Shown: positions 1,220 to 37,038, counted from the first letter of the stretch. The stretch is DNA of 64,000 bases from Clostridiales bacterium Firm_09 (GCA_001604065.1 LVAO01000012.1:45571-109570); one strand, 5' to 3'. Made by a program: numbers and translations. Notes: generated by a model not told the origin, from the sequence alone.

Positions 1220-1257
1220 GATTTGCTCCGTGTTTCTGCCCGCATGCGGGCATTGCA

Positions 1258-2571: not shown

Positions 2572-2579
2572 ATTCCCTC

Positions 2580-3110
2580 CTATACGGTTTCCACGATCAG
2601 ATTATGATTGGTAAAAATACAGATATCCGCAGCAATCTTCATGGCGCTTCGGACAATCTGTTCCGCGCTCATTTGCGTATTTTCTTTGAGTGCGCGCGCT
2701 GCCGCAAGGGCATAGTTGCCGCCGCTGCCGATGGCGCAAACGCCATCCTCGGGATCCACCACGTTGCCGTCGCCGCTGACAATGAACAAATTGTCTTTGT
2801 CCGCCACAATCAGCATCGCCTCCAGATTGCGCAGCATATTGCCCTTACGCCACTCTTCTGCAAGCTCGACTGCGCTGCGCATCAAATTGCCGGAATATTT
2901 CTGCAGCATCTCTTCGAATTTTTCGCTCAGCGTAAACGCATCGCTGACAGAACCGGCAAAACCGACGACGACTTTTTCGTCGTAGATTCTTTTGACCTTC
3001 TTTGCATTGCCCTTCAAGACAACGCTTTGACCCATGGTTACCTGCCCATCGCCGCCGATTGCCGTTATACCGTCCCGGCGCACTGCGCAGATTGTCGTAC
3101 CTTCCAACAT
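2580..3110 (-). CDS. hslV: ATP-dependent protease subunit HslV
   Basis: 176-aa ORF with N-terminal Thr nucleophile context [10 protein letters not shown] and a proteasome-beta-like core (GGDGQV, GSGGNYA). Confidence 0.95.
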
Positions 3111-3138
3111 AATTCACCTCGTTTGCCGTTTTACGGCG

Positions 3139-21600: not shown

Positions 21601-22220
21601 TGCTCCAACGGGCCCAGATTGGAAGAAACTTCGCTCAGAATATCATTGATTCTGGTCAGGTTCTCGCGGGTACGCTCCAGCTTCCTTTCTGTTTCCAGCT
21701 TGCGTGCTTTATGGCGGCTGATGCCGGCGGCTTCTTCAAAAATCTGACGTCTTGCCTCGGGTTTTGCAGAGAGTATCTCCTCGATTTTCCCTTGACCGAT
21801 GATGCTGTAGCCCTCTCTTCCGATGCCGCTGTCCCGAAAAAGATCGATGATGTCCCGCCAGCGGCATATATTGCGGTTGATATAATATTCGCTGTCGCCG
21901 CTTCTGTACAGCTTGCGGGTAACGACAACCTCGTCATAATCGACAGGATACCTCCTGTCCTCATTATCAAGGAACAACGAAACCTCGCAATAGGACATGG
22001 ATTTCCGGTTGGTTGTTCCGCCAAAGATGATTTCGGGCATTTTCTTGCAGCGCAGAACAGAGGGGCTTTGTTCCCCCAAAACCCATCTTACCGCATCCGC
22101 CACATTGGATTTTCCGCAGCCGTTGGGACCGACGATGCCGGTGATATTGGATTTGAATTCGATTTCCGTTTTGTCTGCAAACGATTTGAAGCCAAAAAGT
22201 TCTATTTTTTTAAGATTCAT
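18615..22220 (-). CDS. smc: Chromosome partition protein Smc
   Basis: 1201 aa. N-terminal Walker A is GPNGCGKSN. Long coiled coils surround a central hinge. The C-terminal signature is LSGGERALTAIAILFA plus Walker B ILDEIEAALD. Confidence 0.95.
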   Translation of the reverse strand: MNLKKIELFGFKSFADKTEIEFKSNITGIVGPNGCGKSNVADAVRWVLGEQSPSVLRCKKMPEIIFGGTTNRKSMSYCEVSLFLDNEDRRYPVDYDEVVVTRKLYRSGDSEYYINRNICRWRDIIDLFRDSGIGREGYSIIGQGKIEEILSAKPEARRQIFEEAAGISRHKARKLETERKLERTRENLTRINDILSEVSSNLGPLEQEAKDAAKARELKNKLKQIEVRYFLHQCENTSSERDRIRDNLQKAIKEFEAKDAELKALTAEYNTAMADLNNSSIYGNRLRDNVTRLLVDAEKAAGESRLFAERLNNLRREAQNISTETMQLESRLAARQLEKEEKIASYNEKTLILAEKRRTFELLQKNQTELSDSVARQEKEIERTNLLMLDSMDKLSRIDSDKARLEIKRDVLIENIRTSKEALKEARQNLSTAEKERDGYRAELDAINKERNERQNEKALADKNLSECQTDLRAAQKDKNEAEQYLAALEAKIRMVEEFINDYTGYQESVRRLMNEAQNNPSVRSKILGTVGDVITVPQDLQVAVESALGAAIQNIITPNEHDAGALIDLLRQKGYGRATFLPLTTVRANPLAREHQRALDEDGVIGIASDLIRYDNKYSNVMSSLLGKTLIVENRDIAFSVARKYNFGFRIVDINGDIVSQSGSVSGGSNASRSNRILSRESELEDLKKKQISTKKKIDMLAAGILEYEEEQQKLEKAVGIIDARVHKLEVDIGTLENKLYNADSVVEALREDVRRLESGIAEDSARSEELIRLIKESEKFKDDTAAEKTSASDYVNEAKDKLFNDKQNLNALNKRVTEAYVEVSNLQNEIDSINKDLAAIKAEGVMIQQSLLDLKARRMSNEKQLKDMEAQAKENSAGNEESNEEIIRLRKEIDDLEQYKSGLQEKLSRMDTQRTELNKLCGDINERRIREEANLERIDIDLSNLSVRIKEDYDLDYDSAKRFVAENPFDGEFDYAKAQQESLSLRRKIERLGPVNELAEQKFLNEKSRYDDLSRQYDDLVKAEAELKKIIEELTTEMTEKFTKSFAQINLNFQEVFKELFGGGSARLELEKEEGVSVLDAGIEIMAEPPGKKLTRISLMSGGERALTAIAILFAIIKLNPMPFSILDEIEAALDEANASLFAQYLHKFSKSTQFIVVTHRKPTMELADMLYGVTMQEKGISKLVSAKLEDAIKEVKGA

Positions 22221-22284
22221 AGCACGTCCTGAAGGGGGAGCGGAGAACCGTCCCCGCGATGATTGATTACAATGACACGATTGA

Positions 22285-25200
22285 TTATAGCTTTAATCCG
22301 CTTCCGTCCAATATATCGGGAGGAAGATTGGCAAGATTATCGGGGAAGATAAGAAAAGCAAGGTTGCTGCATCCGGCAAAGGCGCGGCTGCCGATGTATT
22401 CTAGAAATTGTGCTTGAGTCAGATCCACACCCAAAAAGGAGCGGCAGTTTTCAAACGCACCCTCGCCGATGGAGATCAGTGCAGAAAGGTCACCGTAAAA
22501 TGCGGCGAGCCCTGCGCATCCGGCAAAAGCATAGTCGCCTATGGCTGTCTGTGCTCTTGCAAACGTAATTGCAGCAATGCCCTCGCAACCGGCAAAAGCA
22601 TATGCCTTCACCTGTGTGCTGACCGTCAGTGTCACATACCTCAGCGAGAAGGGAATTCTGTAATAATTCTGTGTGCCTGCCTGACGATATACGTTGACAT
22701 CGTATCCCGTTGCCGTACCGAAGATAGCGCCGAACTGAGCGGAATCGCCGGTTGCGGACGGCGAAGTGCCCGCGAACGGCAGCGAAATCGATACCAGACT
22801 GCTCATTCCTTCCAGGGCTCCCGCCGCGATTGTTGTCACGGACTGCGGTATCGTCAGCGCGGTGACAGACGCACAATTGTAAAATGCTTTTTGCGGGATT
22901 GCCGACAATCCTTCGTTGATGACGATAGATCGGACGCGCGTCATATTGCAGAAGACACCGTATCCGAGGGAAGAAGCGGAGGTGAGCGTGATGCTTTCCA
23001 ACAGGTCGGGTATGTAATAGATCCGGCTGGATGCTGCGTCAAAATATTGGACCGTCGCGCCCGAAACGCTTGCGTCGACTGTTCCGAAGACATATCCGAA
23101 CAACGCGGTAGCGCCTGTTTCTGTTCTGCTTGTGCCGGCAAAGGGCAAGACCATGGATTTCAGAGAGGAGCAGCCCGAGAAAGCGGCAAACGCGATATTG
23201 GTCACGCTGTCGGGAAGGATGATTGACTCCAGACCCGAACAGTTTGCAAAAGCCAGTCTTCCGATTGTCTGCAGACCGCTGTTGAGCGTGAGCGAGGTAA
23301 TCTCCGCGCAGTTATAGAGCGCGCCATAGCCCAATGCAGAAGAAGAAGTAATGCGCAGCTCATAAAGATGATCGGGAAGAATCGTATAAATAACATTATT
23401 GGATTCCGTATAGATTTGGGCCGTCGTCTGTGTGCCGGGACTGCTTTGGATGCCGAACATGTATCCCAACAATGCATTCTGTCCTGTGGCGGTACGGCTC
23501 ATACCGACAAACGGAGTAGTGAGCGATTCCAGATGCATGCATCCCGCCAGTACCCCTTCGCCCAACGTAGTAACAGAATCCGGAATCACAAAAGTGTTGA
23601 CGGCAGTATTTGCAAAGGCTCTCTCACTGATTGTTGTCAATACGCCGCCTTGGAAGTGAATCGAACTCAGTCCCGTACAGCCCGAAAAAGCATAGGAGCC
23701 GATGGTGCGCAATGTTGAGGGCATATTGACAGAGACCAAAGAGGTCATATTCAAGAAGGCGTTGTTTCCGATGGCTGTGATGCCCTCATTGAGAACAATC
23801 GTTGTGATTCTGGTATTGTTGGCAAAAGCGTTCGCCCCTATTTTGGTCGCCCCGGTCACATTGATTACCTTGAGGCTTGTCGGCGTGCTTCCAAACAGAT
23901 AGGTCAGGCGCATTTCTGCATCCTGTGTTGTGGTTCTGGTTCTTCCGATGAACGGTACGGTGATTGTTTCAAGAGCGTTGCTGCCTTTGAAGACATTCTG
24001 TCCGAACTCCGTCAGGCTGCTGTTGACGACAACAGAAGTCAGCGACGCAAGGTAGGACAGTGCGCCGTATCCAAGCTTGTATGCAGAAGTAACGGTGATA
24101 TTGGTCAGACCAAGCGGAATGACCGCATAATAGTTCTGCTCGGTCACGTTCATATAGACTTGTGCGGTTATGCCGCTTCCGGAAGCTGTTTTGCGCTCGA
24201 ACCAATACCCCAGCAAAAACTGCTCCGGCGTGCTTTCTGAAGGCATCATCCTTGAGCCGATATACGGAACGGTCATTGACTGCAGATTTGTACAGCCGGC
24301 AAAAGCGCCCTGCGCAATCGAGTTGATGCCGTTGTTCAGTGTTACCTGAACCAGTCCCGTCATGCCGGCAAAAGCGGATGATGCAATAACTTGTGCCGCA
24401 GTGATATGGAGTGTCTTGACGTTCCCGATGCCGCTGTCTGATGCGTCTCCATAGAGATACCGCATGATTGCCATATTGCCCGATGCGGCGGCAGCGTTGC
24501 CCGGATAAGGCAGCGTCAGCGTTTCCAGTCTGGTGGTGCCTTCCAAAGAAAGCTGGCCCAGGGATTCTGCCGCAGAATTCACAGAAATCAGCGTCAGTTC
24601 GCCGCAGCCGGAAAACGCACCGTAACCGATATTGACAGCAGAGGTGACATATACATTTTTCAGGGTGGGGGGTATCGCATAGACCGCAGAAGCATTGGGG
24701 GCATATTTTTGTGTGACGCCGGAGGCCGAAGCACCAAAGAAATAGCCCAGCACCGCGTTGGCTCCGCTTGCCGTTCTGGAAGCGCCGATAAACGGCACAG
24801 ACAGACGTACATTCAGAAGCGCACCGGTAAAGGCTCCTGCGCCGATATACGTAACGCTGTCGGGCAGAACGACATCCGCAAGAAGGGAACATCCCTCAAA
24901 AGCATGGCTTCCGACAGTGCTTAACAGACTTCCTGACGCGGCGGAGAACGAACGCAAGCCGCTGTTGAAGAAGGCATAATCCCCTATTGAAAGCACCGAC
25001 GCGGGCAGAACAAGCGTATTGAGAGGCACGCCGCTCAACGCATGATTGCCTATCTGAAGGATTCCCTCGTTAAGGCTTAGCGCAGAGATGAGCGAACCCT
25101 GCAGCGCGTTTGCCGCAAGATAGGTGGCGGATGTCAGAGTCAGCGCCGACACCGACATCGGTATTGCTCCGAACAAGTAGGCAATGTTATCGGTCGCGGG

Positions 25201-28200
25201 ATTCGCCGCACCCGTTTTGTCGGGACCGAGGAACGGCACACTGAGCGAGGTCAGGTTGACGCAGCCGGCAAATACATCCGAACCGATTGAATTAACCGAA
25301 GAAGGAATCCGTGCGGAAGAAAGCGCAAAGCAGTTTCCGAAGGCATTGTTGCCTACTGAAAGCACACCTTCGGGCAAAGATATATTCTGCAGCACTGTGC
25401 ATCCGTAAAATGCATTGCTGCCCACCGAAACAAGCTGTGAGCCAACCTCAAACATGACCGACGTCAGACTTCCGCAGCCTTCAAAGGCATGCGCCCCGAT
25501 ATCGGTGACGCCGGCAGAAATTACAACAGATTCGAATCTGGCTCCGGCAAAGGCATAGTCTCCCACAGAGAGCAGTTTTGCCGCTCCGTTCAGGACAAAT
25601 GCCTGCATGTTGACGCAGCCGTAAAACGCATTATCGCCGACGGCGATGTTTCCGCTCGCGGCAACCGTCTGGAGAGAGGTGACGTTGCTGAAGCTGCCGT
25701 TTGAAATGGAAATCGGACGTTCAAGCGTCACACGGTTAAGCGTAGCGGGAATTTCGCTGTAATAATAGGTCGGTACGCCGGAAGAGAAAACAGCCTGTGC
25801 GACCGTATGGGCGGTGGGCGACTCTTTGAATCCGAAGAGATATCCAAGAAGCCCTTCCTGATGGACCGCGCCGGCGGATTTTCCCACAAAAGGCAGCGTC
25901 AGATCGACAAGGGATGTGCAGTTTGCCAGCAGCCCTTCCGGCATTTCCGTAAGGGTTCCTGCAATCGAGAGCGATGTCAGCGCACACACAGCGTCCAACG
26001 CGTTTTCTGTCAGAATTTCAACTGCGGTCAACCGCAGCACCGCCAGTGCCGAAAGCGTGCCGCCGCTCAGATAACTGATCTTTCCTTCTGCGCCCATAGC
26101 CGATGCGGAGGCACCCGGATAAGGAAGCGTCAGGGAAGAAAGCGATGTGCAGCCGGCGATAAGGTTTTTGCCAAGAGCCGCTCCGTCGTTTACGGTGACT
26201 GTTGTCAGGGATGAGATGCCGGAGAGAACGCCGTATCCGGACGCGCTGTCCAGTGTAACGGCAGTCAATGTGGCGGGAATCCAGGCATAAATGGTCTCCG
26301 TGTCGCTGTATCTTTGCAGAATTTTTCCTGCACCCGGCGTGCTGTCAAAGCCAAAAAGGTATCCTAACAGACCGTCTCTGCCGGTTGCCGAGGCCGAAGC
26401 GCCCGCAAAATGCAGATAAAGCGATTCAATGGGCAATCCGTTCAGAATGCCTTCTTCAACCCAGACCACACCGTCGCCGAACGTAACATTTTTTAAGGCA
26501 TCAAAGGATTCAAAAACGTTCGCGGAGAGAGAAATTTCTTCTCCGGTATTGCGGATAACAAGGGTTTCGATGCCATTGACCGTATTCCCGAAAACATATT
26601 TTATTCTTGCATTTTCGCCGATTGCCTGCACAGAAGCCCCGATGAAGGGAAGTGTCAGCGATTTAAGGTTCGCGCAACCTGCAAAAGCGTCTTTGCCGAT
26701 GACCGACAGCGTATCCGGGAGCACCAGCGAACCGAGATAGCAGTACGAAAAAGCTCCTTCCTCTATCTCCGTAAGGGCGCCGTTTGCCGCAAACGCAACG
26801 GCCGACAAGGAAGAACAGAGAGAAAATGCTTCCTTCCCGATTGTTTTCACATTTGCGGGAATGCCGACGGTCAGGAGTCCGCAGCCCAAGAAAGTATAGT
26901 CCGGGATTTCGGCCAGGGCTGAAAGGCTGTTGAGATTGAAGGCCGTCAGCGCCCCGCAATGCGCGAATACGCCTTCTCCCAGTTCCTTAAACGAAACGGG
27001 CAGGCGCACATCGGCGAGTGCACTGCAGCCAGAAAAAGCGTAATCCCCGATATACACCAATTCCGATGCATCGTTTAATTGAATCGCGGTCAGCGCGGTG
27101 GAAGAAAATGCTCTGCGTCCTATCCGTATCAGGCTTTGCGGCAACGGGAAGGCGGCAAGCGAAACGCAGTTCTCAAACGCATTTTCTTCTATCACCAGAA
27201 GCCTGGGGTTGGCACCGAAGCTTACGGAAACAAGTTCGCCGCAGGATTGAAATGCGTTTTTGCCGATACTCAGAAGACCGGAAGGCAATGTAACGTTTTT
27301 CAAGGAAGGATTGCCCTCAAACGCGTAGGACTCAATCCGCGTGACGCTATCCGGCACTGCAAACGATACTGCAGACAGCGATTGCGGATAAGAAATGAGA
27401 ATCGTTCCGTCAATCGAATACAATATATTGTTCACTACCTTGTAGCCCGTGCGGTATCCGCTCAGAGAAAGCGATGCGACAGGCGTATTGAGGAAGGGAT
27501 TGAGCCCTATCGACCGTACACCGGAAGGAATTTCTATGGATGTCAGCATAGACCCTGCAAAAGCAAAATCCCCGATAGAAGAGAGTGCGCTGGATTCCCC
27601 GCCGAAAGTAACGGTTTTCAGCTGGCTGGAAGCAAATATCTCGTTGCCCAGCGAAACCGTTGTCGCGGGCAATGCAATGGTCTGGATTGCGGTATTTCTG
27701 AAGGCTCCCGCTCCGGCAGAGACAAGCTGCGCGCCGTTTGCAAAGGATACTCCGGCGAGCGACAAACAGCCGGAAAAAGCGTCTTCCTCTATACGCAGCA
27801 AGGAAGCTGGAAACTGCATATACGCCAGCGCGGCGTCCCCCCGGAAAGCACTCTTGCCGATTTCGTTCAGCACACTGCCGGAAGCAAACGTGACGGAGAC
27901 CAACGCAGAGGCGCCCAAAAAGGCTTCTTCTCCGATTGTTTCCACGCTTGCGGGAATATTGATGGCACCGAGCGAGGCGTTGTCTGCAAAAGCCCTTTTC
28001 TCTATCGTCTTCAGCCTGCTGGCCAGCGGGAAAGTTATCGACGAGAAACTTGAAGACAAAAACGCTTCTTCTTCTATCGCCACAACGCTTGCCGGCATTG
28101 AGAGGGAATTGATATCCGCTTCATAGAACGCATATCTGCGCACAACAGTGATGCCTTCGTTCAGCGCAATCGTAATCCCCGACAATCTGCTGAACGCGCC

Positions 28201-31200
28201 GCCGCCCACCTGAACGGCATTGGTAATGATGACCGTTGTAAGCGAATCCGGAATATAGAAGGTCTCTTCTATGCCGACGCAGCATTGTACGACAGCGGTT
28301 GTCGACGCCGTATTGAATCCGCCGAATATATACCCGAACATCGCCTCACGGGTACCCGTTGCCGAAGCATATGCTCCCGCAAACGGCACGCTTACCCTCC
28401 GCAACGAAGTGCAGCCGGCAAGGATGCCCTCGCCGATCAAGGTCAGGCTGTTGGGAAGGGCAATGATTTCAAGTCCGTCATCCCCTCTGAAAGCATAATT
28501 GCCTATCGTTGTCAGGCTGCTGTTGTAAAGGCTGATGTCGATCGTCCTCAGGGCGGTTATGCCGGCAAAAGCATAGTCTCCTATCGATACGACGCTTTCG
28601 GGAAGGACAAGCGAAGCCAACGCCGTTTCAAAAAACGCATAATCCCCTATCGTACGAGTCCTGCCAAGCGAAACGGCGTGCAGACCCGTGCACTCTCCGA
28701 AGGCTTCGCGTCCGATGGTCAGAACAGAGTTGGGTACAACGAAGGAAGCGAGAGCGGCATTGCATGCAAAGGCGGCTTCCCCGATTGCTTCAATTCCGTC
28801 GTTGATGATGATCTGAGCAATGGACGTATTTGAAAACGCGCCATAAGGAATGATGTCTGCGCCGGTCAGCTCCACGCGCAAAATACCCGCGGGAATATTG
28901 TAGACTGCGGATTCTGTCAGAGAATAATTTTGTTCGATGCCGGATGTTCCTTGTCCGAACAGGTAACCGAATACAGCGTCCGGTGTGCCCGCCGCGTTTC
29001 TGGATGATCCCACAAAAGGAATCACCAATGTCTTCAGATTGTCACATCCGCAGAGGATTTCTTCTCCGATGGATGCGATGTTGGCGTTCAGCGCGATTTC
29101 CGTCAAGGAAGACATGTTGTAGAATGCGCCGCGGCGGATGTTCACGGCGTCGGTAATCTCTATGCTTTTTAGTTGCGGGATTGCATAGGTGCCTTGCCGG
29201 CCCTCGCCGAACACCTGTGTAATGCCTGCCGAATCGTTGCCAAACAGATAGCCGAGAATTGCTTCTTCCCCTTCCGCTGTCCTGGACGCGCCGACAAAGG
29301 GCAATACGAAAGACTCCAGCGCGCCGCATCCCTTAAAGACGTTCTCTTCTGCCGTGAGAAGCGCCTTGCCGATTTCGACATTGACCAGGGCAGCCATATT
29401 GGAAAAGGCGCCGTAGGGAAGGTTCTTTGCGTTGGTGAGGATCACTTCCTGCAGCCCCGCAGGAATGAAATAATAGGCGCTCTTGCCCGGCGCATAATAT
29501 TGCAGAGTATATACGCCTTCTGCGGGCTGTGTGCGGGAATATCCGAACAAATACCCCAGTACGGCGTCCTCGGTGCCGGATACGTAAGCGGCCGACCCGG
29601 TAAAAGGAAGCGTCAGCGAAACAAGGGAAGTGCAGCCGTAAAGCAGATTGCTGGAAACTCTGGCGAGTTTTGCCGAAAGCTTGATGATCGTGAGACCGGA
29701 GCATCCGGCAAAAGCAGCGTTGCCGATGGCAAGCACGCTGTCAGGAACCTGAACATTCGACAAATGACTGCAGTCCGCAAACGCATAATATCCTATTTCT
29801 GTCAGCGACGAGGGCAACGTCAGCACGCTGAGTGACGAGCAGCCCTTAAACGCGGCGTTGCCGATGCTGGTCAGACTGTTGAAACCCGCAAGTCTTGCGC
29901 CGCTGGTTCCATTGACAAAGGCAAGTGCGGCGCAGCCTTCGAAGGCACTGCCGGCAATCGAAATGATTTTGGAAGGCAGTGTCAGCGAAATCAGGTTTTC
30001 GCAACCGAAAAACAATTTTTCGGCTATATTGCTCACACTTGTGATATTAAAATCGATGACTTGCGTCAGCGCGGCGCAGTTCCGGAAGGCTCCCGCTTCT
30101 GCGGTTGTCAAAGTATTGGTAAAGCTGATCCTTTGCAGTCTGCTGTACGCGAACGCTTCCTGAGCAATGGTTTTCACAGTCGCCGGCACGGTAAATTCGG
30201 ATGCCGTAGAACCCGCGGGATACTGCAGCAGCAGCGTACCGAATTTATCATACAGCACGCCGTTGGCATCCGAAGAATACTTTGAATTCAGACCGTCCAC
30301 GCTGATGTACATCAGATTGGTGCAGCCCGCAAATGCGCCTCTTTCGATAACCGTAATATTTTCATAAATCGTTACGGATTGCAAATGATTGTTGCCGGCA
30401 AAGGCATATTTGCCGATGGAGGTGACGGGAGTGCCGTCCGACATTGTCTTCGGGATAATCAGGCTTTCTGCAGTCCCGGTATATCTTGTAATGATGGCTT
30501 TGTTGTTCACAACATAATAATTAAAGTTGTTTTCATAAAAAATATCATTGTAGCCGACATTCCAATAAATAGCGGGATCATCCCATCTGTCCGTCCAGAC
30601 TTCCGGCTTGGAGGCTCCTTTTGCATAAATGGCAAGATAGCCGCAGCCTTCAAAGGCATTCCTGTCCAGTTTTGTAATTCCGGAAGGCAATGAAATCGTA
30701 TACATACCGGTTTTATATTGGAAAGCTTTGCCTATCGATACGGTTTCGGGTATATCGAGTCTTTCCGGTACGACCATATTGTCGCTCAATGTTCTGGTGT
30801 ATTCCAAAATATATGCCGCGTCGGTCATTCCTACGTCGCCGTATTCGAGGACCACATAATCGTATCCGTCCCTGCTGAACGCCGCGGACTCATAGGTTGC
30901 GGCGGCGGGGCAATTATGGAACGCATAGTTTCCGACATATGTCAGCGAAGCGGGCAGAACGAGATTCTCCAGTGCGATGCAGCCGTTAAAAGCGTCGTTG
31001 CCGATGCCGGTAAGCGAACGCGCAAACAGCACCTGGGTCAGACCGGAGCAGCCGAAAAAGGCTTTTTCGTCAATATAATTTGTGATTTCCAGCGTCACGG
31101 AATTGATTCCGGTACAGCCCGAAAAGGCTCCGTAAGGCACTTCATAGGTATCGGTCAATGTCACTTCGGCAAGCGATGCGGGAAGGTAATACCGGACAAC

Positions 31201-33615
31201 GTTGACCGAATCATACCACTGATAAGCGGGCACACTGCCGGAGAAACCGGTATTGCCGAAAATATATCCGAACAAGCCTTCGGAAGTTCCTGCCTTGGCT
31301 TTGGAGCTGCCTACAAAAGGTAACGTGAGCGACGAGAGCATGGCGCATCCGTCAAAGGCATTGCTGCCTATCCATGTGACGTTCTTTGAGAGAGTCATCT
31401 CCGTGACAGAGGTATTGGCAAAAGCATAGCAGCCGATGGAACGTACGGAATTTCCCAGCACGATAGAGGTCAGCGATACACAGTTGCTGAAGGCGTAGTT
31501 GCCCAGTGTATTCACTCCGGAAGGAACCGTGAAGCTCGTAGTATTTCTTCCTTGGGGAAATTGAATCAGGCTGGTCCCGCTTTTGTTGTAAAGCGCGCCG
31601 TCCGTACCCGCCGCATACAGCATATTCTCTTCATCGACAATGATGTCTGTCAGCGACTCACAGCCTCTGAAGGGAGCGTTGCCGATAACGCCGACGCCCT
31701 TGGGCACCGTAAAGCTTACAAGCGAAGCGCAATTCAAAAAGGTCTCGGCTTCAATATTCTGGATCGACGGCGGCAAGTGGATTGCCGTGAGGTTGCGGCA
31801 ATTTTCAAAAGAATTGCTTCCCAGTCTGCGGATGCCGTCATGCAGCGCTACCATTGTCACGGACTGATTGTTTTTGAATGCGTTGTCCGAAATGGATATT
31901 ACGGGTCGACCATTGTAGGAAGAAGGTATATATACCTCCGCCTCCACGCCACTGTATCCGGTAACGCTGTACGTGTTGTCCTGCAGAAGAGTGTATTTGA
32001 GCCCCTGCGTGCTTTTTTCTGTATAGGAAGCAAGCAAGGTGAACTTCCCGTTCACAGCCTCATCATAGTCAATCGTCCAGCGTTGGGGCGCAAACGGAAC
32101 ACCCTCATGCGTCCAGCCTGCGAAATCATAGGCAAACCGTACGGCTCTGATGTTGCTCAGACGATACAGAAAATCCTCGTCATACGCTACTTCAATATAT
32201 TCCGCTTCTGAAGGTATCCCTTCGATAGAGGCGTCTTCTGCTTCCGCAGAAAAATACAATTTATATGTTTTGGGAATCAGATATCCTTTGACGCTGATAT
32301 CGGAATCCGGCATATTTGCCGGCAGCCCAGACCATCCCGAAAACGTGTAGCCCGTTTTCTCCGGTGCGTCGGGAATCTCTTCCTCAAGAATCGGGGATTG
32401 ATAGGTATACGTCAACCTGGCGTATTCCTGCCCGTCCAAAATAAAGATCACATAAAAAACATCGGTGAAGAAACCATAAATTTCTATATTCTCATTGGGC
32501 ATTGTCACGGGAGCGCTTCCGCTTTCTGCGTTCAGCCAGCCGGAAAAACGGGCTCCCGGTCTGACGGGCGCAGGAAGGTAAGAAATGGGTGTGCCGTAGG
32601 CGGCAGTCCGCACGTCATACATCACACCGTCCACAAAATAAGTAATGGAATATTCCAGCGGGGTAAGACTGCCGTACACATTCAGGTTCTGCGCCGGCAT
32701 CGTTTCCGGAAGGACGGAGCCGTCATTCAGTTTCCAGCCGGAGAAGGTGTAGCCTTCTATGCTGAGAGGCGCCAATACCCCTTCCAGCGGCGCACCGTAC
32801 GGATAGGTCAGCACAACGGGTGTATGATCGGGTGCATAGGGACTCCCGTTCAGATAATAGACAAGCTGATAATTGTTGACGGTCCATTTTGCATATAAAC
32901 GGAGATTGCCCGTAGTTCCTGCAGGAATCGCGGTCACCCTTGTCCTGTATTCTTCTTCCGCATACCAGCCGTCAAAGGTATAGCCGGTTCTTGTTGCGTT
33001 CTGAAGTGTGATGCGTCCTGTTTCAACATTATAAACGGCAGGATTTGAGGTGATGCCTCCGCCCAGATTGTATACAATACTGTAATTTATCAGGCGCCAT
33101 CTGGCGGTCAGCGTGACATCTTCTTCCGGCCAGAAAGGAAATTCTGTTTTTACGGTATCATTTTCGCTCTTGTACCAGCCTAAAAACTGGTATCCTGCAC
33201 GCGAGGTGACAGGCTCTGTCTCAATGACCTCAACATCCTCAAAAGTCGGCACTTCGCTGCCGCCGTCGGCAAAAAAAATCACATCCGGTTTTTCTTCGGG
33301 TTCCGGCGGCTGCGTCTCTTTTTCCCATTTTGCATAAACCGTCTTGTTTTCGTAAATACCGGTCTGAAGAATGAGCGTCAAAGAAACAGGCTGGTTCCAG
33401 ACATCCTTATCAAAATACCATCCCGCAAACAAATATCCTTCTTTGGAGGGCTCCGGCGGAAACGCAAGTTCTGAAGTACCATCCAGAACGATGACCGTAT
33501 TTTCTCCTCCTCCCTGCGTGTCAAACGTCAGAGTGTACACCTCGGTCGTGTCGTTGCAGGCCGCAAGACCAACGGCCAGACAAACAGCCATAAGGATAAA
33601 CAGGAGTTTTTTCAT
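22285..33615 (-). CDS. Giant (3,776 aa) surface lipoprotein: N-terminal Listeria-Bacteroides (Flg_new-like) repeats followed by >3,200 aa of BspA-type leucine-rich repeats
   Basis: A single uninterrupted ORF with GGAGG RBS. The signal MKKLLFILMAVCLAVGLAAC carries lipobox LAAC. There are seven G(Y)xF.GW modules. After that the BspA/LRR_5 signature (IP.SVt.IG..AF.gC..L.si) recurs throughout. There is no C-terminal TM or LPXTG. Confidence 0.88.
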   Translation of the reverse strand: MKKLLFILMAVCLAVGLAACNDTTEVYTLTFDTQGGGENTVIVLDGTSELAFPPEPSKEGYLFAGWYFDKDVWNQPVSLTLILQTGIYENKTVYAKWEKETQPPEPEEKPDVIFFADGGSEVPTFEDVEVIETEPVTSRAGYQFLGWYKSENDTVKTEFPFWPEEDVTLTARWRLINYSIVYNLGGGITSNPAVYNVETGRITLQNATRTGYTFDGWYAEEEYRTRVTAIPAGTTGNLRLYAKWTVNNYQLVYYLNGSPYAPDHTPVVLTYPYGAPLEGVLAPLSIEGYTFSGWKLNDGSVLPETMPAQNLNVYGSLTPLEYSITYFVDGVMYDVRTAAYGTPISYLPAPVRPGARFSGWLNAESGSAPVTMPNENIEIYGFFTDVFYVIFILDGQEYARLTYTYQSPILEEEIPDAPEKTGYTFSGWSGLPANMPDSDISVKGYLIPKTYKLYFSAEAEDASIEGIPSEAEYIEVAYDEDFLYRLSNIRAVRFAYDFAGWTHEGVPFAPQRWTIDYDEAVNGKFTLLASYTEKSTQGLKYTLLQDNTYSVTGYSGVEAEVYIPSSYNGRPVISISDNAFKNNQSVTMVALHDGIRRLGSNSFENCRNLTAIHLPPSIQNIEAETFLNCASLVSFTVPKGVGVIGNAPFRGCESLTDIIVDEENMLYAAGTDGALYNKSGTSLIQFPQGRNTTSFTVPSGVNTLGNYAFSNCVSLTSIVLGNSVRSIGCYAFANTSVTEMTLSKNVTWIGSNAFDGCAMLSSLTLPFVGSSKAKAGTSEGLFGYIFGNTGFSGSVPAYQWYDSVNVVRYYLPASLAEVTLTDTYEVPYGAFSGCTGINSVTLEITNYIDEKAFFGCSGLTQVLFARSLTGIGNDAFNGCIALENLVLPASLTYVGNYAFHNCPAAATYESAAFSRDGYDYVVLEYGDVGMTDAAYILEYTRTLSDNMVVPERLDIPETVSIGKAFQYKTGMYTISLPSGITKLDRNAFEGCGYLAIYAKGASKPEVWTDRWDDPAIYWNVGYNDIFYENNFNYYVVNNKAIITRYTGTAESLIIPKTMSDGTPVTSIGKYAFAGNNHLQSVTIYENITVIERGAFAGCTNLMYISVDGLNSKYSSDANGVLYDKFGTLLLQYPAGSTASEFTVPATVKTIAQEAFAYSRLQRISFTNTLTTAEAGAFRNCAALTQVIDFNITSVSNIAEKLFFGCENLISLTLPSKIISIAGSAFEGCAALAFVNGTSGARLAGFNSLTSIGNAAFKGCSSLSVLTLPSSLTEIGYYAFADCSHLSNVQVPDSVLAIGNAAFAGCSGLTIIKLSAKLARVSSNLLYGCTSLVSLTLPFTGSAAYVSGTEDAVLGYLFGYSRTQPAEGVYTLQYYAPGKSAYYFIPAGLQEVILTNAKNLPYGAFSNMAALVNVEIGKALLTAEENVFKGCGALESFVLPFVGASRTAEGEEAILGYLFGNDSAGITQVFGEGRQGTYAIPQLKSIEITDAVNIRRGAFYNMSSLTEIALNANIASIGEEILCGCDNLKTLVIPFVGSSRNAAGTPDAVFGYLFGQGTSGIEQNYSLTESAVYNIPAGILRVELTGADIIPYGAFSNTSIAQIIINDGIEAIGEAAFACNAALASFVVPNSVLTIGREAFGECTGLHAVSLGRTRTIGDYAFFETALASLVLPESVVSIGDYAFAGITALRTIDISLYNSSLTTIGNYAFRGDDGLEIIALPNSLTLIGEGILAGCTSLRRVSVPFAGAYASATGTREAMFGYIFGGFNTASTTAVVQCCVGIEETFYIPDSLTTVIITNAVQVGGGAFSRLSGITIALNEGITVVRRYAFYEADINSLSMPASVVAIEEEAFLSSSFSSITFPLASRLKTIEKRAFADNASLGAINIPASVETIGEEAFLGASALVSVTFASGSVLNEIGKSAFRGDAALAYMQFPASLLRIEEDAFSGCLSLAGVSFANGAQLVSAGAGAFRNTAIQTIALPATTVSLGNEIFASSQLKTVTFGGESSALSSIGDFAFAGSMLTSIEIPSGVRSIGLNPFLNTPVASLSLSGYRTGYKVVNNILYSIDGTILISYPQSLSAVSFAVPDSVTRIESYAFEGNPSLKNVTLPSGLLSIGKNAFQSCGELVSVSFGANPRLLVIEENAFENCVSLAAFPLPQSLIRIGRRAFSSTALTAIQLNDASELVYIGDYAFSGCSALADVRLPVSFKELGEGVFAHCGALTAFNLNSLSALAEIPDYTFLGCGLLTVGIPANVKTIGKEAFSLCSSLSAVAFAANGALTEIEEGAFSYCYLGSLVLPDTLSVIGKDAFAGCANLKSLTLPFIGASVQAIGENARIKYVFGNTVNGIETLVIRNTGEEISLSANVFESFDALKNVTFGDGVVWVEEGILNGLPIESLYLHFAGASASATGRDGLLGYLFGFDSTPGAGKILQRYSDTETIYAWIPATLTAVTLDSASGYGVLSGISSLTTVTVNDGAALGKNLIAGCTSLSSLTLPYPGASASAMGAEGKISYLSGGTLSALAVLRLTAVEILTENALDAVCALTSLSIAGTLTEMPEGLLANCTSLVDLTLPFVGKSAGAVHQEGLLGYLFGFKESPTAHTVAQAVFSSGVPTYYYSEIPATLNRVTLERPISISNGSFSNVTSLQTVAASGNIAVGDNAFYGCVNMQAFVLNGAAKLLSVGDYAFAGARFESVVISAGVTDIGAHAFEGCGSLTSVMFEVGSQLVSVGSNAFYGCTVLQNISLPEGVLSVGNNAFGNCFALSSARIPSSVNSIGSDVFAGCVNLTSLSVPFLGPDKTGAANPATDNIAYLFGAIPMSVSALTLTSATYLAANALQGSLISALSLNEGILQIGNHALSGVPLNTLVLPASVLSIGDYAFFNSGLRSFSAASGSLLSTVGSHAFEGCSLLADVVLPDSVTYIGAGAFTGALLNVRLSVPFIGASRTASGANAVLGYFFGASASGVTQKYAPNASAVYAIPPTLKNVYVTSAVNIGYGAFSGCGELTLISVNSAAESLGQLSLEGTTRLETLTLPYPGNAAAASGNMAIMRYLYGDASDSGIGNVKTLHITAAQVIASSAFAGMTGLVQVTLNNGINSIAQGAFAGCTNLQSMTVPYIGSRMMPSESTPEQFLLGYWFERKTASGSGITAQVYMNVTEQNYYAVIPLGLTNITVTSAYKLGYGALSYLASLTSVVVNSSLTEFGQNVFKGSNALETITVPFIGRTRTTTQDAEMRLTYLFGSTPTSLKVINVTGATKIGANAFANNTRITTIVLNEGITAIGNNAFLNMTSLVSVNMPSTLRTIGSYAFSGCTGLSSIHFQGGVLTTISERAFANTAVNTFVIPDSVTTLGEGVLAGCMHLESLTTPFVGMSRTATGQNALLGYMFGIQSSPGTQTTAQIYTESNNVIYTILPDHLYELRITSSSALGYGALYNCAEITSLTLNSGLQTIGRLAFANCSGLESIILPDSVTNIAFAAFSGCSSLKSMVLPFAGTSRTETGATALFGYVFGTVDASVSGATVQYFDAASSRIYYIPDLLESITLTSASSLGYGVFCNMTRVRSIVINEGLSAIPQKAFYNCASVTALTIPQSVTTIAAGALEGMSSLVSISLPFAGTSPSATGDSAQFGAIFGTATGYDVNVYRQAGTQNYYRIPFSLRYVTLTVSTQVKAYAFAGCEGIAAITFARAQTAIGDYAFAGCAGLAAFYGDLSALISIGEGAFENCRSFLGVDLTQAQFLEYIGSRAFAGCSNLAFLIFPDNLANLPPDILDGSGLKL
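22690..31330 (-). repeat. Coding periodic super-module (17 copies, ~178-aa period) inside the LRR region
   Basis: The motif L.(L/V)PF(V/I/A)G.S....G.....LGY(L/I)FG...(Q.Y)...YY.IP..L..V.LT.A..I.YGAFS recurs 17 times. The first copy is LTLPFVGSSKAKAGTSEGLFGYIFG (P766, nt 31320). The last is ISLPFAGTSPSATGDSAQFGAIFG (nt ~22780). Confidence 0.75.
32017..33540 (-). repeat. Coding tandem repeats: seven Flg_new-like ~70-80-aa modules (aa ~26-533 of the giant LRR protein)
   Basis: Anchors seen: YLFAGWYF, YQFLGWYK, YTFDGWYA, YTFSGWKL, ARFSGWLN, YTFSGWSG, YDFAGWTH. Several end in ..Y(A/G)KW. Confidence 0.7.
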
Positions 33616-33678
33616 ACCAGACTACCTCCAGCGGGACGCTACTTAATCTATCTCATATAAACGCGCATACGTATATAC

Positions 33679-33714
33679 ATTATACATTCTACATATTTAA
33701 GCAGTCAAAGTCAA
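33679..33714 (-). promoter_or_regulatory. Candidate tandem promoters of the giant LRR gene
   Basis: On the minus strand: TTGACT (33714-33709), 17 nt, TAGAAT (33691-33686). A second pair overlaps it: TTGACT (33708-33703), 18 nt, TATAAT (33684-33679). Confidence 0.4.
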
Positions 33715-33894: not shown

Positions 33895-36018
33895 ATGGAA
33901 TATAATATGGAAAAATACAAAAAATTTACCTCAAAGAAAGCAAAGAAACGCCTTCCCCGCCTTGCATTGGGCATTCTGACCCCCATTTTATGTCTTATTC
34001 TCATTCTCGTTTGCTGGGTCGCGGGAGATCTTATAATCAACATGCAAATTGAAGCCGCGCCGCGCCGAGTCTCCGATCCTTCCTTATATGACGGCACAGA
34101 ACTTCTGCAGATGGTATGGCTCTATGGGAACAAAGGGCAGACCAATGAGACCTTCTCTCTTAAAATGGAAGATATCACCGCAGAGAGAGTATTCAATGCG
34201 CTGCCCGGGTACATCCGATATCTGGAAGAAAGGCTTGACTGTGCCGATTTCAGGGCTGTTTTCTTGTTGAAGCTTTTATTTGACGGCGGCGAAGATCTTG
34301 ATGCCCTCTCTCCTCTTATACGTCAAAAAATTGGGGCGGCTTTGACCGGCTTCAAGTTCTGGATTACTTCGCCGGGCGCAGACAGCATGTGCTATTATTC
34401 AGAGAACCATCAGATTAATTTTGCCGTCATCGAATATCTGACAGGCCAAGCATTTCCCGATGCGGTATTTGCCGTCGACGGCAAAACCGGCGCCGAGCAT
34501 GTCCGGATTGCGGCAAAACGGATAGAAGACTGGCTCGACATGCGCTTCCTTTACGGTTTTTCGGAGTGCTTTTCGGCCAATTATTATGTGGTGGACATTG
34601 CCGCGCTCACCATGCTGCTTGCTTATGGCAACCGTGCGGACGGCATTCTTATGGAGCGGGCAAAAATGGCGCTTGATCTGATCTTTGCTGATTTTGCGCT
34701 CCAGATGTATGATTACACCTTTGTCAGTCCTTCCGGGCGCGCATACCAATACAACAATCTGTGCTGGGAAACCTCCGACGCCGCGCGAATTGTCGACCAT
34801 GTCTGGAATCTGAACAGAATCCAGGACAATCGTTTCAACTATTATCTTATCACTTCGGTGGTCAACAATAATCTTGACCTTCTCGCATCCGGAAGCACGC
34901 CGTATTACAAAATTCCCGAAGTGATTCTGGAACTCGGCAGGAGCAACGAAAAAATCGTCCGCACCTCTACGGGTCTGAACCTTTCCGATCTGGATGCGCA
35001 CGGACTTCTGGGGCAAAGCGACCGCCAAATGATGTTCCAGTTGGGCATGGGCGCTCTCTCCAATCCGGAAATCATCGAAAACACTTTGGATTACATCAAC
35101 AAATACAATCTGCTCACCAATCAGTTTTTAACAAATTTCAAATATTTCAACATCAAAGCCATACGTTATTCCGGCCTGATGCCCGTTATGTCAAAATGGG
35201 TGAATCCCTATATCAACGGCTTTGCCAACCAGGAATACAATGTTTATACATACATAAAGAATTCCTACAAGCTTTCCACCAACCAGGCATATTTTCCGGG
35301 TTCCTTCGGTTCGCAACAGCTCCAATCGGTCGCACTTCTTCCGGGAGGGATCCCCATATACACAACCCATCCCGTTGACACCATGACCGGCACGCCCGGC
35401 TATTGGGCGGGCTACGGTGTCGCGCCCCACGCCGTACAGGAGCAGAACATTGCCCTTCTTATGTATAAACTTCCCAAAAACATTGCTTTGCTCTCAGATA
35501 AGCCTCTTCCTTACACTCATACCTACTTCCCCGAGGCGGAGTTTGATGAAGTAATGATTGACGGAAGCCGCGCTTTTGCCAGACGAGGAGATACTTATAT
35601 CGCCCTTTTGGGAAGCGGGACATTGCGCTACGCCGACCGAGACGAAGCCCGCCTGGAGGGTTTGCCGTATAAAACCGCCGGGCGCTTCGATCTGATTCAG
35701 GAAGGAAAAGAACAGGCATGGGTCTATGAGCTTTCGGATGCCTCCGAGGGCAGCTTTTCGGATTTCATACAGAGAATACGCGGCAACACCCTGCGCTTTG
35801 ACGGAGACTCTGTACGCTATATCAGCAATGCAAAAACGTATTCCGTCGAATACAAAGGTTCCTTTGCCATAAACGGTCAGACCATCCGGACGGATTACGC
35901 CCGCTACGAAAGCGACTTTGTCCATGCCGCCAAATATCAGACGACCTTTGAATATGCCTTCCATGGCAAGAGTCTTGTTCTGGACTATCCGAACGCCAAA
36001 CGCACCGTTCGCGATTAA
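33895..36018 (+). CDS. Membrane-anchored hypothetical protein, possible alpha/alpha-toroid plus beta-sandwich polysaccharide-lyase-like (heparinase II/III-like) fold
   Basis: The ORF track starts at TTG 33748. I prefer ATG 33895 (or 33907), just before the basic stretch and TM (KKAKKRLPRLALGILTPILCLILILVCWVAG). The helical N-half carries a YYSENHQ (Asn-His) motif and the C-third is beta-rich. The family call is from memory and weak. Confidence 0.6.
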   Translation: MEYNMEKYKKFTSKKAKKRLPRLALGILTPILCLILILVCWVAGDLIINMQIEAAPRRVSDPSLYDGTELLQMVWLYGNKGQTNETFSLKMEDITAERVFNALPGYIRYLEERLDCADFRAVFLLKLLFDGGEDLDALSPLIRQKIGAALTGFKFWITSPGADSMCYYSENHQINFAVIEYLTGQAFPDAVFAVDGKTGAEHVRIAAKRIEDWLDMRFLYGFSECFSANYYVVDIAALTMLLAYGNRADGILMERAKMALDLIFADFALQMYDYTFVSPSGRAYQYNNLCWETSDAARIVDHVWNLNRIQDNRFNYYLITSVVNNNLDLLASGSTPYYKIPEVILELGRSNEKIVRTSTGLNLSDLDAHGLLGQSDRQMMFQLGMGALSNPEIIENTLDYINKYNLLTNQFLTNFKYFNIKAIRYSGLMPVMSKWVNPYINGFANQEYNVYTYIKNSYKLSTNQAYFPGSFGSQQLQSVALLPGGIPIYTTHPVDTMTGTPGYWAGYGVAPHAVQEQNIALLMYKLPKNIALLSDKPLPYTHTYFPEAEFDEVMIDGSRAFARRGDTYIALLGSGTLRYADRDEARLEGLPYKTAGRFDLIQEGKEQAWVYELSDASEGSFSDFIQRIRGNTLRFDGDSVRYISNAKTYSVEYKGSFAINGQTIRTDYARYESDFVHAAKYQTTFEYAFHGKSLVLDYPNAKRTVRD

Positions 36019-36369: not shown

Positions 36370-37038
36370 TCAGATGTGTTGCTCCGTTTTTGAAAAATAA
36401 TCATACGCGGCCTGCTGCTCTGCCCTTCTTTTTGAACTTCCGACGCCGCTTCCCACCTTTTCGTCCATGATATACACAGCCGATTCAAATCCATTCTGAA
36501 CGGGCACGGTCTTGAACACCGCTTTGACGGCTTTCTGCGCGCATTTCTCCAGAAGCATGGATTTGTAATCCGTATTGACGCTGTCTTCGGAAATCCGATT
36601 TTCCAGATTGCGGAGCACAAATTTTTTACATGCCTCCATCCCGCCCCCGTCCAAAAAAATCGCCGCGGTGATTGCCTCAAACAGATCTGCCCGGACACCG
36701 ATGCTCCCGATAACCTCATCCGCAATCGGGCCGGAGGATGTCCGCATATACTCTATGACGCCGAGGCTGTCTGTTGCCGCGGCAAGCGTCTTTGTCGATA
36801 CCAGCGCCGCGCGCATTTTTGTAAGAAAACCTTCATTCTGCGCAGGATATTTATTAAAAAGGTATTCTGCAACAACAAAATTAAGGATGCTGTCGCCCAA
36901 GAACTCCGACCTCTCATAGGAATTCACACCGTGTTCGTTGGCATACGAAGCATGCGTGAATGCAGAAAACAGCAACTCCCAATCTTTGAAGACATACCCG
37001 ATTTTCTTCTGAATATCAATCAGGTCAAAATGCTTCAT
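36370..37038 (-). CDS. rnc: Ribonuclease III
   Basis: 222 aa with the signature ERSEFLGDSILNFVVAEYLF and a C-terminal dsRBD. Confidence 0.93.
   Translation of the reverse strand: MKHFDLIDIQKKIGYVFKDWELLFSAFTHASYANEHGVNSYERSEFLGDSILNFVVAEYLFNKYPAQNEGFLTKMRAALVSTKTLAAATDSLGVIEYMRTSSGPIADEVIGSIGVRADLFEAITAAIFLDGGGMEACKKFVLRNLENRISEDSVNTDYKSMLLEKCAQKAVKAVFKTVPVQNGFESAVYIMDEKVGSGVGSSKRRAEQQAAYDYFSKTEQHI

What the first reader, a model, noticed from the sequence alone, without database searches (positions are those of the whole stretch)
22285..33615. 3,776-aa BspA-type LRR lipoprotein with an N-terminal Flg_new repeat array
This is one 11.3-kb ORF. A lipobox signal (LAVGLAAC) is followed by seven Listeria-Bacteroides-repeat-like modules. 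An essentially continuous run of more than 3,200 aa of BspA/LRR_5-type repeats then extends to the very last residues (...LPPDILDGSGLKL).

The only anchor is therefore the N-terminal lipid. That orientation is opposite to the other giant protein in this window, which is anchored at its C-terminus. BspA-like proteins are usually a few hundred to about 1,500 aa long, so this one is exceptionally long.
Basis: partly seen in the sequence, partly recalled or inferred. Interest (0 to 1): 0.6.

Follow-up and report, generated by a model that had tools for sequence, protein, structure and literature searches.

The report
Giant lipid-anchored leucine-rich-repeat surface protein
This is a real, intact 3,776-residue gene for a lipid-anchored surface protein of an uncultured gut-type Clostridia bacterium, made of a short stalk and a very long leucine-rich-repeat coil; such giants are common in these bacteria, so its size is ordinary, and only its rigidly fixed layout and an unannotated repeat insert stand out.

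Summary
Window 22285-33615 (-) is one open 3,776-aa frame. It has a GGAGG ribosome site, a promoter-like site, a conserved signal peptide with lipobox (LAAC), seven Flg_new modules and strong LRR_5 matches. The solenoid runs to within about 20 residues of the C-terminus, and there is no second anchor.

It is not an assembly artefact:
- There are no tandem or long near-identical DNA repeats.
- Internal repeats are at most 43% identical.
- Three independently assembled full-length orthologues (3,786-3,788 aa; 71, 66 and 49% identity) are collinear, with no indel over 8 aa and the same 17 inserts.

The claim of exceptional length fails. At least 371 database clusters are homologous proteins of about 2,100-6,600 aa. 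This 1.44-Mb genome alone has eight ORFs over 3,000 aa, three of them with this architecture. Earlier notes of this scan list 48 word-matched findings of similar giant lipoproteins in at least 44 other genomes.

"Continuous LRR_5" needs qualifying. Seventeen copies of a module that matches no Pfam family (LPFxG...GYxFG, then Q.Y...YxIP in the 12 long copies) interrupt the coil. AlphaFold2 models it as a helix pair plus a beta-hairpin. The module occurs in about 3,500 protein clusters.

The gene lies between rnc and smc only in this genus. Most likely it is a surface binding protein (adhesin); its ligand is unknown. It is a new member of a known kind.

The parts
22285..33615 (-). Coding sequence of the 3,776-aa protein; the stop codon is 22285-22287.
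   Evidence: An identical protein is on record with a start 8 codons later (P0002).
33679..33708 (-). Promoter-like site TTGACT-18-TATAAT (11 of 12 matches), about 60 nt upstream of the ATG.
   Evidence: This is a consensus match only. A similar TTGACA...TAGAAT site lies upstream of the G002 orthologue.
33625..33629 (-). Ribosome-binding site GGAGG, 9 nt before the ATG.
   Evidence: The same GGAGGTAGT is seen in G002.
33556..33615 (-). Signal peptide with lipobox (aa 1-20, MKKLLFILMAVCLAVGLAAC; Cys20 is the predicted lipidated residue).
   Evidence: Read from the sequence and conserved in orthologues. It is the only strongly hydrophobic segment. LspA is present in the genome.
32011..33543 (-). 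Array of seven Flg_new (Listeria-Bacteroides repeat) modules, aa ~25-535; the presumed stalk.
30535..32010 (-). First LRR_5 solenoid (aa ~536-1027). It has one long module and ends in a cap-like W..W motif. The boundary is tentative.
22288..30534 (-). Second, very long LRR_5 solenoid (aa ~1028-3776), running to the C-terminus.
22624..31329 (-). Span holding 17 interleaved modules that match no Pfam family. The 12 long copies start at aa 763, 1334, 1437, 1530, 1741, 2399, 2572, 2938, 3114, 3365, 3488 and 3610. The 5 short copies start at aa 2320, 2495, 2791, 3033 and 3218.
   Evidence: No Pfam hit at E<=1. The structure is modelled.
33898..36018 (+). Divergently transcribed 706-aa membrane-anchored orphan protein. 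It is part of the inserted block here but is not a constant companion of the giant.
36370..37038 (-). rnc (RNase III), the upstream flank of the insertion.
18615..22220 (-). smc, the downstream flank. It starts 64 nt after the giant's stop, and no terminator-like site was found between them.

Best explanation
The gene encodes a genuine, expressed-looking giant surface lipoprotein of a monoderm-type Clostridia bacterium.

**Proposed mechanism**
1. After Sec export, the lipobox Cys20 is lipidated and the signal peptide is removed by LspA. The N-terminus is thereby tethered to the outer face of the cytoplasmic membrane.
2. The seven Flg_new domains act as a stalk through the cell wall.
3. About 3,240 aa of BspA/TpLRR-type (LRR_5) solenoid projects outward. 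It probably forms two capped coils, with a contour length on the order of 50-60 nm.
4. Seventeen inserts decorate the solenoid. Each is a helix pair, and the 12 long copies add a beta-hairpin. The tips of these inserts are the fastest-evolving parts.
5. By analogy with BspA, LrrA and other LRR_5 proteins, the protein binds a macromolecular partner. That partner could be a host or dietary glycoprotein or another microbe's surface. The ligand is unknown.

**Shown:** the reading frame, the domain content, the fold, conservation and purifying selection, and the genus-restricted position between rnc and smc.

**Inferred:** lipidation, surface exposure, the stalk role of the Flg_new array, and the binding function.
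For: **Frame and domains**
- Intact ORF with RBS and promoter-like site.
- LRR_5 at 1,316.7 bits and Flg_new at 155 bits, both far above their cut-offs.

**Lipoprotein route**
- Lipobox conserved in orthologues.
- LspA present in this genome. Lgt present in both same-genus genomes. No Omp85 or sortase hit.
- No second hydrophobic segment.

**Not an assembly artefact**
- No tandem repeats; the longest DNA repeat families are 26-51 nt at 60-86% identity.
- Internal paralogous segments are at most 43% identical.
- Orthologues of 3,787, 3,786 and 3,788 aa are collinear. The largest indel is 6-8 aa, and all 17 modules sit at equivalent positions.

**Selection**
- pN is 0.18-0.21 against pS of 0.64-0.69.
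- Amino-acid identity (71 and 66%) is close to that of rnc (75 and 69%).

**Structure**
- AlphaFold2 models have pLDDT 96.8 (166-aa unit) and 91.0 (last 877 aa). They show a continuous LRR solenoid with helix-pair and hairpin inserts.
- The best Foldseek matches are the solved LRR_5 surface proteins 4fs7, 4h09, 4gt6, 6mlx and 4cp6.

**Known function of the class**
- BspA and LrrA are surface-exposed. BspA binds fibronectin and fibrinogen, and both mediate co-aggregation (PMC2843621).
Against: - There is no experimental evidence for expression, lipidation, surface exposure or any ligand.
- Lgt was not found in this 79%-complete assembly.
- LRR_5 proteins have no single established function.
- The strict conservation of layout is unlike the copy-number variability usual for adhesins facing host immunity. 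That may point to a structural role instead.
Confidence: 0.7

Rival explanations
1. The protein is a structural surface coat rather than an adhesin. The solenoids would lie along, or associate laterally on, the cell surface. Together with the genome's other giants they would form a protective layer against phage, bile or immunity. The regularly spaced helix-pair and hairpin inserts would serve as self-association contacts.
For: - The layout is fixed over about 50% sequence divergence, with no repeat gain or loss.
- Its evolutionary rate is similar to that of a housekeeping neighbour.
- Eight ORFs over 3,000 aa take up about 6% of the assembled genome.
- The module framework is highly conserved.
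- The gene sits inside a core operon region.
Against: - No S-layer or wall-binding domain (SLH, CWB2) is found.
- The hairpin tips and loops are the most variable parts, which would be unexpected for lattice contacts.
- No self-association has been demonstrated.
Confidence: 0.2
2. The protein is exported and then released into the medium, or shed, rather than staying lipid-anchored. It would act as a soluble binding or decoy protein.
For: - There is no C-terminal anchor.
- Lgt was not detected in this assembly.
Against: - The lipobox is conserved in all four full-length proteins: this one and its three orthologues.
- LspA is present here, and Lgt is present in both congeners.
- The same lipobox type heads the paralogous giants.
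Confidence: 0.07
3. The ORF is an assembly artefact or a decaying pseudogene: repeat collapse or expansion, or a chimeric contig.
Against: - No near-identical repeats exist that could mislead an assembler.
- Three independent full-length collinear orthologues from different projects have the same flanking genes.
- There is strong purifying selection.
Confidence: 0.02

Closest known systems
BspA (Tannerella forsythia), LrrA (Treponema denticola) and TpLRR: the founding BspA/TpLRR-type (Pfam LRR_5) surface proteins
   Same: - Same repeat type: LRR_5 at 1,316.7 bits.
- Same solenoid fold: the TpLRR structure 6mlx is among the best Foldseek matches.
- Predicted surface location.
- The documented role of the class is binding to host matrix proteins and co-aggregation (PMC2843621).
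   Different: - About three times longer than the roughly 1,200-aa size I recall for BspA (from memory, not checked here).
- Lipid-anchored at the N-terminus in a bacterium that appears to lack an outer membrane.
- No Big_2 or T9SS sorting domain was found. I recall these as part of BspA's architecture; that was not verified here.
- It carries an N-terminal Flg_new array and 17 helix-pair/hairpin inserts that are absent from the solved LRR_5 structures.
Giant Flg_new + LRR_5 lipoproteins of uncultured gut Clostridia (unnamed class). Examples are P0005-P0121 in the protein collection and earlier findings of this scan such as e1-2216917.
   Same: - Same domain set and order, and same lipobox.
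- Same size range (2,100-6,600 aa).
- The same layout conservation was reported for a 3,617-aa example.
- Two paralogues of this type are in the same genome.
   Different: - Only 22-29% identical to them.
- Highest count of the PFxG/GYxFG module among the listed hits, at 16-17 copies. The profile was built from this protein, so this count is biased.
- Located between rnc and smc rather than beside a MoxR/VWA cassette. No MoxR hit above cut-off was found in this genome.
Solved LRR_5 proteins from gut bacteria (PDB 4fs7, 4h09, 4gt6, 4fd0) and pneumococcal PcpA (4cp6)
   Same: They give the best sequence and fold matches to the canonical repeats.
   Different: - They are single domains of about 370-400 residues.
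- Their alignments stop at the LPF motif, so none contains the insert module.
- TM-scores normalised to the query are only 0.34-0.58 for the module-bearing unit.
Listeria internalins (InlB type: LRR plus B-repeat)
   Same: They combine LRRs with the Flg_new / InlB B-repeat fold on a Gram-positive surface.
   Different: - A different LRR class.
- The opposite domain order: here the B-repeats are N-terminal to the LRRs.
- A lipid anchor instead of LPXTG or GW modules.
- No LRR_adjacent domain was found.

Membership tests
Pfam LRR_5 (PF13306), BspA/TpLRR-type leucine-rich repeats | Match to the family model above the gathering score. | tested here: met
   1,316.7 bits against 27.7, in 24 stretches.
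Pfam LRR_5 (PF13306), BspA/TpLRR-type leucine-rich repeats | LRR solenoid fold like the solved family members. | tested here: met
   AlphaFold2 pLDDT 96.8 and 91.0. The top Foldseek hits 4fs7, 4h09, 6mlx and 4gt6 have probability 1.0.
BspA orthologue (Tannerella forsythia architecture) | LRR region followed by Big_2 domains and a T9SS C-terminal sorting domain (architecture recalled from memory). | tested here: not met
   The Pfam scan lists only LRR_5, LRR_8, Flg_new, Flg_new_2 and LRR_EndoS. The solenoid runs to the C-terminus.
Flg_new / Listeria-Bacteroides repeat (PF09479, TIGR02543) | Match above the curated cut-offs, in repeated copies. | tested here: met
   PF09479 scores 155.1 bits against 27, and TIGR02543 scores 102.3 against 20.95. 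Six stretches are found in the N-terminal piece and seven GW motifs.
Bacterial lipoprotein (Lgt/LspA substrates) | Basic n-region, hydrophobic core and lipobox [LVI][ASTVI][GAS]C within the first ~35 residues. | tested here: met
   MKK...LAVGLAAC with Cys20 is read and is conserved in orthologues. No SignalP or LipoP was available.
Bacterial lipoprotein (Lgt/LspA substrates) | Processing enzymes encoded by the organism. | tested here: inconclusive
   LspA is present. Lgt was not found in this 79%-complete assembly but is present in both same-genus genomes.
Bacterial lipoprotein (Lgt/LspA substrates) | Actual diacylglyceryl modification and membrane tethering. | not testable with these tools
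   This needs mass spectrometry or globomycin experiments.
HupY/LrrG adhesin (NF047961, equivalog) | Score above the equivalog cut-off. | tested here: not met
   387.7 bits against 1,250.
Gli349 gliding protein (NF045861) | Score above the curated cut-off. | tested here: not met
   216.6 bits against 1,750.

The most novel reading that the evidence does not exclude
The 17-fold insert is an undescribed but widespread elaboration of BspA-type LRRs. Its consensus is LxLPFxGxSxxxxGxxxLLGYxFG ... Q.Y ... YxIPxxLxxVxxT. AlphaFold2 models it as a helix pair plus a protruding beta-hairpin. It matches no Pfam family and is absent from the solved LRR_5 structures that match these repeats. It occurs in about 3,500 protein clusters.

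In this protein, its position-specific, orthologue-conserved hairpins would form a fixed row of distinct binding sites. The giant would then be a multivalent, address-coded docking platform rather than a generic sticky fibre.
Probability: 0.25. Interest if true: 0.55.

Novelty: new member of a known kind. Interest (0 to 1): 0.28.

Why it matters
On its own it matters little. It is one more example of the giant Flg_new + LRR_5 lipoproteins that fill the small genomes of uncultured gut Clostridia, and none of them has a known ligand.

It is useful in three ways:
- **A clean reference case.** Four collinear full-length proteins (this one and three orthologues) show that such repeat giants can be assembled correctly. 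They also show that these proteins can evolve under purifying selection with a frozen layout, unlike the copy-number-variable adhesins of pathogens.
- **A definable domain.** The insert module now has a consensus, a confident structural model and a census of about 3,500 clusters. That is enough to define a new domain family and to pick fragments for structural and binding work.
- **A dated insertion.** The genus-specific insertion between rnc and smc gives a time marker for the acquisition of the gene.

Tried and rejected
**Checks that came back negative**
- Assembly collapse: Tandem Repeats Finder found nothing. Direct-repeat search found only 26-51-nt motifs at 60-86% identity. Self-comparison gave at most 43% identity between internal segments. 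Rejected.
- Known family for the insert: four copies scanned against Pfam at E<=1 gave nothing. PDB sequence matches stop at the LPF motif. Foldseek found only plain LRR proteins.
- The 706-aa divergent neighbour as a dedicated partner: rejected.
  - It is missing from the orthologous locus in G002.
  - Its paralogue in this genome lies about 18 kb from the nearest LRR giant.
  - A distant homologue sits in a uronate-utilisation cluster.
- MoxR/VWA cassette as a partner (a lead from earlier findings): no AAA_3 hit above cut-off in this genome.
- HupY and Gli349 membership: both are far below their cut-offs.

- The genome search refuses proteins over 3,000 aa, so the C-terminal 877 aa was used instead.
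- One mis-framed reference was corrected.
- Whole-protein self-BLAST returned only the identity hit. It was replaced by 180-aa chunks.
- Literature searches found no paper on these giant Clostridia lipoproteins or on the insert module.

Full report
**1. What is there**

Window 22285-33615 on the minus strand is a single open frame of 3,776 codons.
- It starts 9 nt after a GGAGG.
- A TTGACT-18-TATAAT site lies about 60 nt upstream. A second promoter-like site faces the other way toward the neighbouring gene.
- The first 20 residues, MKKLLFILMAVCLAVGLAAC, have a basic n-region, a hydrophobic core and an L-A-A-C lipobox.
- A Kyte-Doolittle scan finds no other strongly hydrophobic segment in the protein.

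Pfam gives LRR_5 at 1,316.7 bits in 24 stretches, against a cut-off of 27.7. It gives Flg_new at 155 bits, against a cut-off of 27. NCBIfam adds the List_Bact_rpt repeat. Its HupY/LrrG and Gli349 matches are far below their cut-offs. Scanned alone, the N-terminal 520 aa gives six Flg_new stretches. The G[YW]xFxGW-type signature occurs seven times.

**2. Artefact or real gene?**

Neither is seen.
- Tandem Repeats Finder reports nothing. The best direct DNA repeats are 26-51 nt at 60-86% identity.
- At protein level, the most similar internal 180-aa segments are 43% identical, and most are 30-39%. An assembler has nothing to confuse.

Three other assemblies carry full-length orthologues.
- A Logan contig carries one of 3,787 aa at 71% identity. 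A JGI contig carries one of 3,786 aa at 66%.
- A species-representative genome of the same genus (G002) carries one of 3,788 aa at 49% identity.
- A fifth genome (G001) has the gene split by contig ends.

The alignments are collinear from the lipobox to the last residues.
- The largest indel is 6 aa among the three closest proteins and 8 aa when G002 is included.
- Nonsynonymous differences (pN 0.18-0.21) are far below synonymous ones (pS 0.64-0.69, saturated).
- The protein's identity to its orthologues (71 and 66%) is close to that of rnc (75 and 69%). It is below plsX (81%), smc (89 and 87%) and ftsY (94 and 91%).

**3. Anatomy of the LRR region**

The region is not a uniform LRR_5 run. A motif recurs 17 times: L-x-L-P-F-x-G ... 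G-Y-x-F-G. A profile built from the copies separates two classes.
- Twelve long copies of 53-64 aa continue with Q-x-Y ... Y-x-I-P-x-x-L-x-x-V-x-x-T.
- Five short copies of 24-34 aa stop after the YLFG element.
- Together they account for about 860 aa.

Four copies scanned alone match no Pfam family, even at E<=1. Solved LRR_5 proteins align with the flanking canonical repeats and stop at the LPF motif.

An AlphaFold2 model was made of one long module with two repeats on each side. The 36 paralogous and orthologous copies served as its alignment. The model is very confident (pLDDT 96.8, pTM 0.90). It shows an LRR strand, two short helices over the GYxFG element, a beta-hairpin carrying the invariant Gln and the aromatic pair, and then the next LRR strand.

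A second model covers the last 877 aa, built with five orthologues (pLDDT 91.0, pTM 0.75). It shows one unbroken solenoid of about 30 canonical turns. Seven inserts are spaced along it: five long and two short. Strands continue to model residue 857 of 877.

Foldseek's best matches to both models are the known LRR_5 structures 4fs7, 4h09, 4gt6, 6mlx and 4cp6. TM-scores are low because none of them has the insert.

Within the module, conservation is uneven.
- The framework is conserved among both orthologues and paralogues (0.81-0.89 and 0.54-0.58).
- The loop after GYxFG and the hairpin turn are the least conserved parts (0.53-0.56 and 0.09-0.13).

A W..W element near aa 1005-1016 aligns with the C-terminal end of a paralogous giant. 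The LRR region is therefore probably two capped solenoids, at about aa 536-1027 and aa 1028-3776. This boundary is tentative.

**4. How common is this?**

The length claim does not survive.
- The search was limited to proteins 0.55-1.75 times the query length, and only 1,556 candidates were scored. Even so, it returned 371 homologous clusters. The 120 listed are 2,187-5,880 aa, and most carry the same Flg_new + LRR_5 Pfam combination.
- The module profile, scored against 1.84 billion representative proteins, finds 3,526 clusters at E<=0.001 and 1,507 at E<=1e-10. These hold 2-16 copies each, in proteins of up to 7,132 aa.
- All ten sampled hits are LRR_5 proteins. One has a T9SS sorting domain, so it probably comes from the Bacteroidota.
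- In an even sample of 199 other Clostridia species genomes that could be scored, the module was found in four.
- The window's own 1.44-Mb, 79%-complete genome holds eight ORFs over 3,000 aa, about 6% of its bases. Three of them (4,551, 3,776 and 3,041 aa) have the lipobox / Flg_new / LRR_5 layout.
- Earlier notes of this scan list 48 findings that match my search words in at least 44 genomes. Those shown describe giant lipoproteins of this kind, one with the same frozen layout.

**5. Genomic setting**

The order in the window is plsX, rnc, a divergent 706-aa orphan, the giant, smc, ftsY, followed by a 438-aa ORF at the position where ffh lies in L001 and L002. The two closest orthologous loci have the same order.
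- In G002 the orphan is absent. There the giant lies directly between rnc and smc, with a 231-nt gap that holds a terminator-like hairpin and a promoter-like site, and a 35-nt gap before smc.
- In five other genera of the family, rnc and smc are neighbours, about 155-460 nt apart.
- No orthologue of the giant was found in the 23 other same-family genomes or 16 same-order genomes searched.

The giant is therefore a genus-level insertion into a core gene cluster. No terminator-like site separates it from smc, so read-through into smc is possible.

The orphan neighbour matches no Pfam or PDB entry and belongs to a family of 25 clusters. It is not a dedicated partner of the giant.

**6. Envelope context**

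LspA is present. Lgt was not found in this incomplete assembly but is present in both congeners. No Omp85 or sortase hit was found. This fits a bacterium without an outer membrane that relies on lipid and transmembrane anchors.

**7. Interpretation**

The shown facts support a lipid-tethered stalk-and-solenoid surface protein. Function is inferred from the class. BspA and LrrA are surface-exposed. BspA binds fibronectin and fibrinogen, and both mediate co-aggregation (PMC2843621, read).

I therefore favour a binding protein with an unknown ligand (0.7). The frozen layout, the housekeeping-like evolutionary rate and the sheer mass of giant surface proteins in this genome keep a structural-coat role alive (0.2). 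Release from the cell (0.07) and artefact (0.02) are unlikely.

**8. Verdict**

The protein is a new member of a known, abundant and functionally uncharacterised kind.

The most interesting residue is the insert module. I found no Pfam family, no solved structure among those that match these repeats and no paper for it.

Noticed in passing
window 33898-36018 (+): A 706-aa protein with an N-terminal membrane anchor and no Pfam or PDB match, belonging to a family of only 25 clusters. A distant homologue lies in a uronate-utilisation cluster (KduI, GH88, UxaC, MFS transporter, metallophosphatases). It may therefore be a membrane-anchored enzyme acting on polysaccharides.
   Followed up: partly
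whole genome G000 (contigs C2, C7, C15, C21, C25): Eight ORFs over 3,000 aa (4,551, 3,869, 3,776, 3,746, 3,710, 3,710, 3,091 and 3,041 aa) occupy about 88 kb, roughly 6% of the 1.44-Mb assembly. Three of them share the lipobox / Flg_new / LRR_5 layout.
   Followed up: partly
window 22221-22284; L053 4630-4664: The giant's stop and the smc start are only 64 nt apart here and 35 nt apart in G002, with no terminator-like site here. smc-ftsY may be transcribed by read-through from the giant's promoter.
   Followed up: no
loci L040, L044-L048 (rnc regions of six other genera of the family): No smc was found within 1.5 kb downstream of rnc, although five other genera have the two genes adjacent. The rnc-smc junction may be a recurrent insertion site in this family.
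   Followed up: no
window 30568-30603 (aa ~1005-1016 of the giant): An internal W..W cap-like element aligns with the C-terminus of the 4,551-aa paralogue. This suggests the giant arose by joining two capped LRR_5 domains.
   Followed up: partly
window 33592-33615: The identical protein on record (P0002, 3,768 aa) starts at the second in-frame ATG (Met9). That start removes the basic n-region of the signal peptide. The upstream ATG with its GGAGG at 9 nt is the better start.
   Followed up: yes
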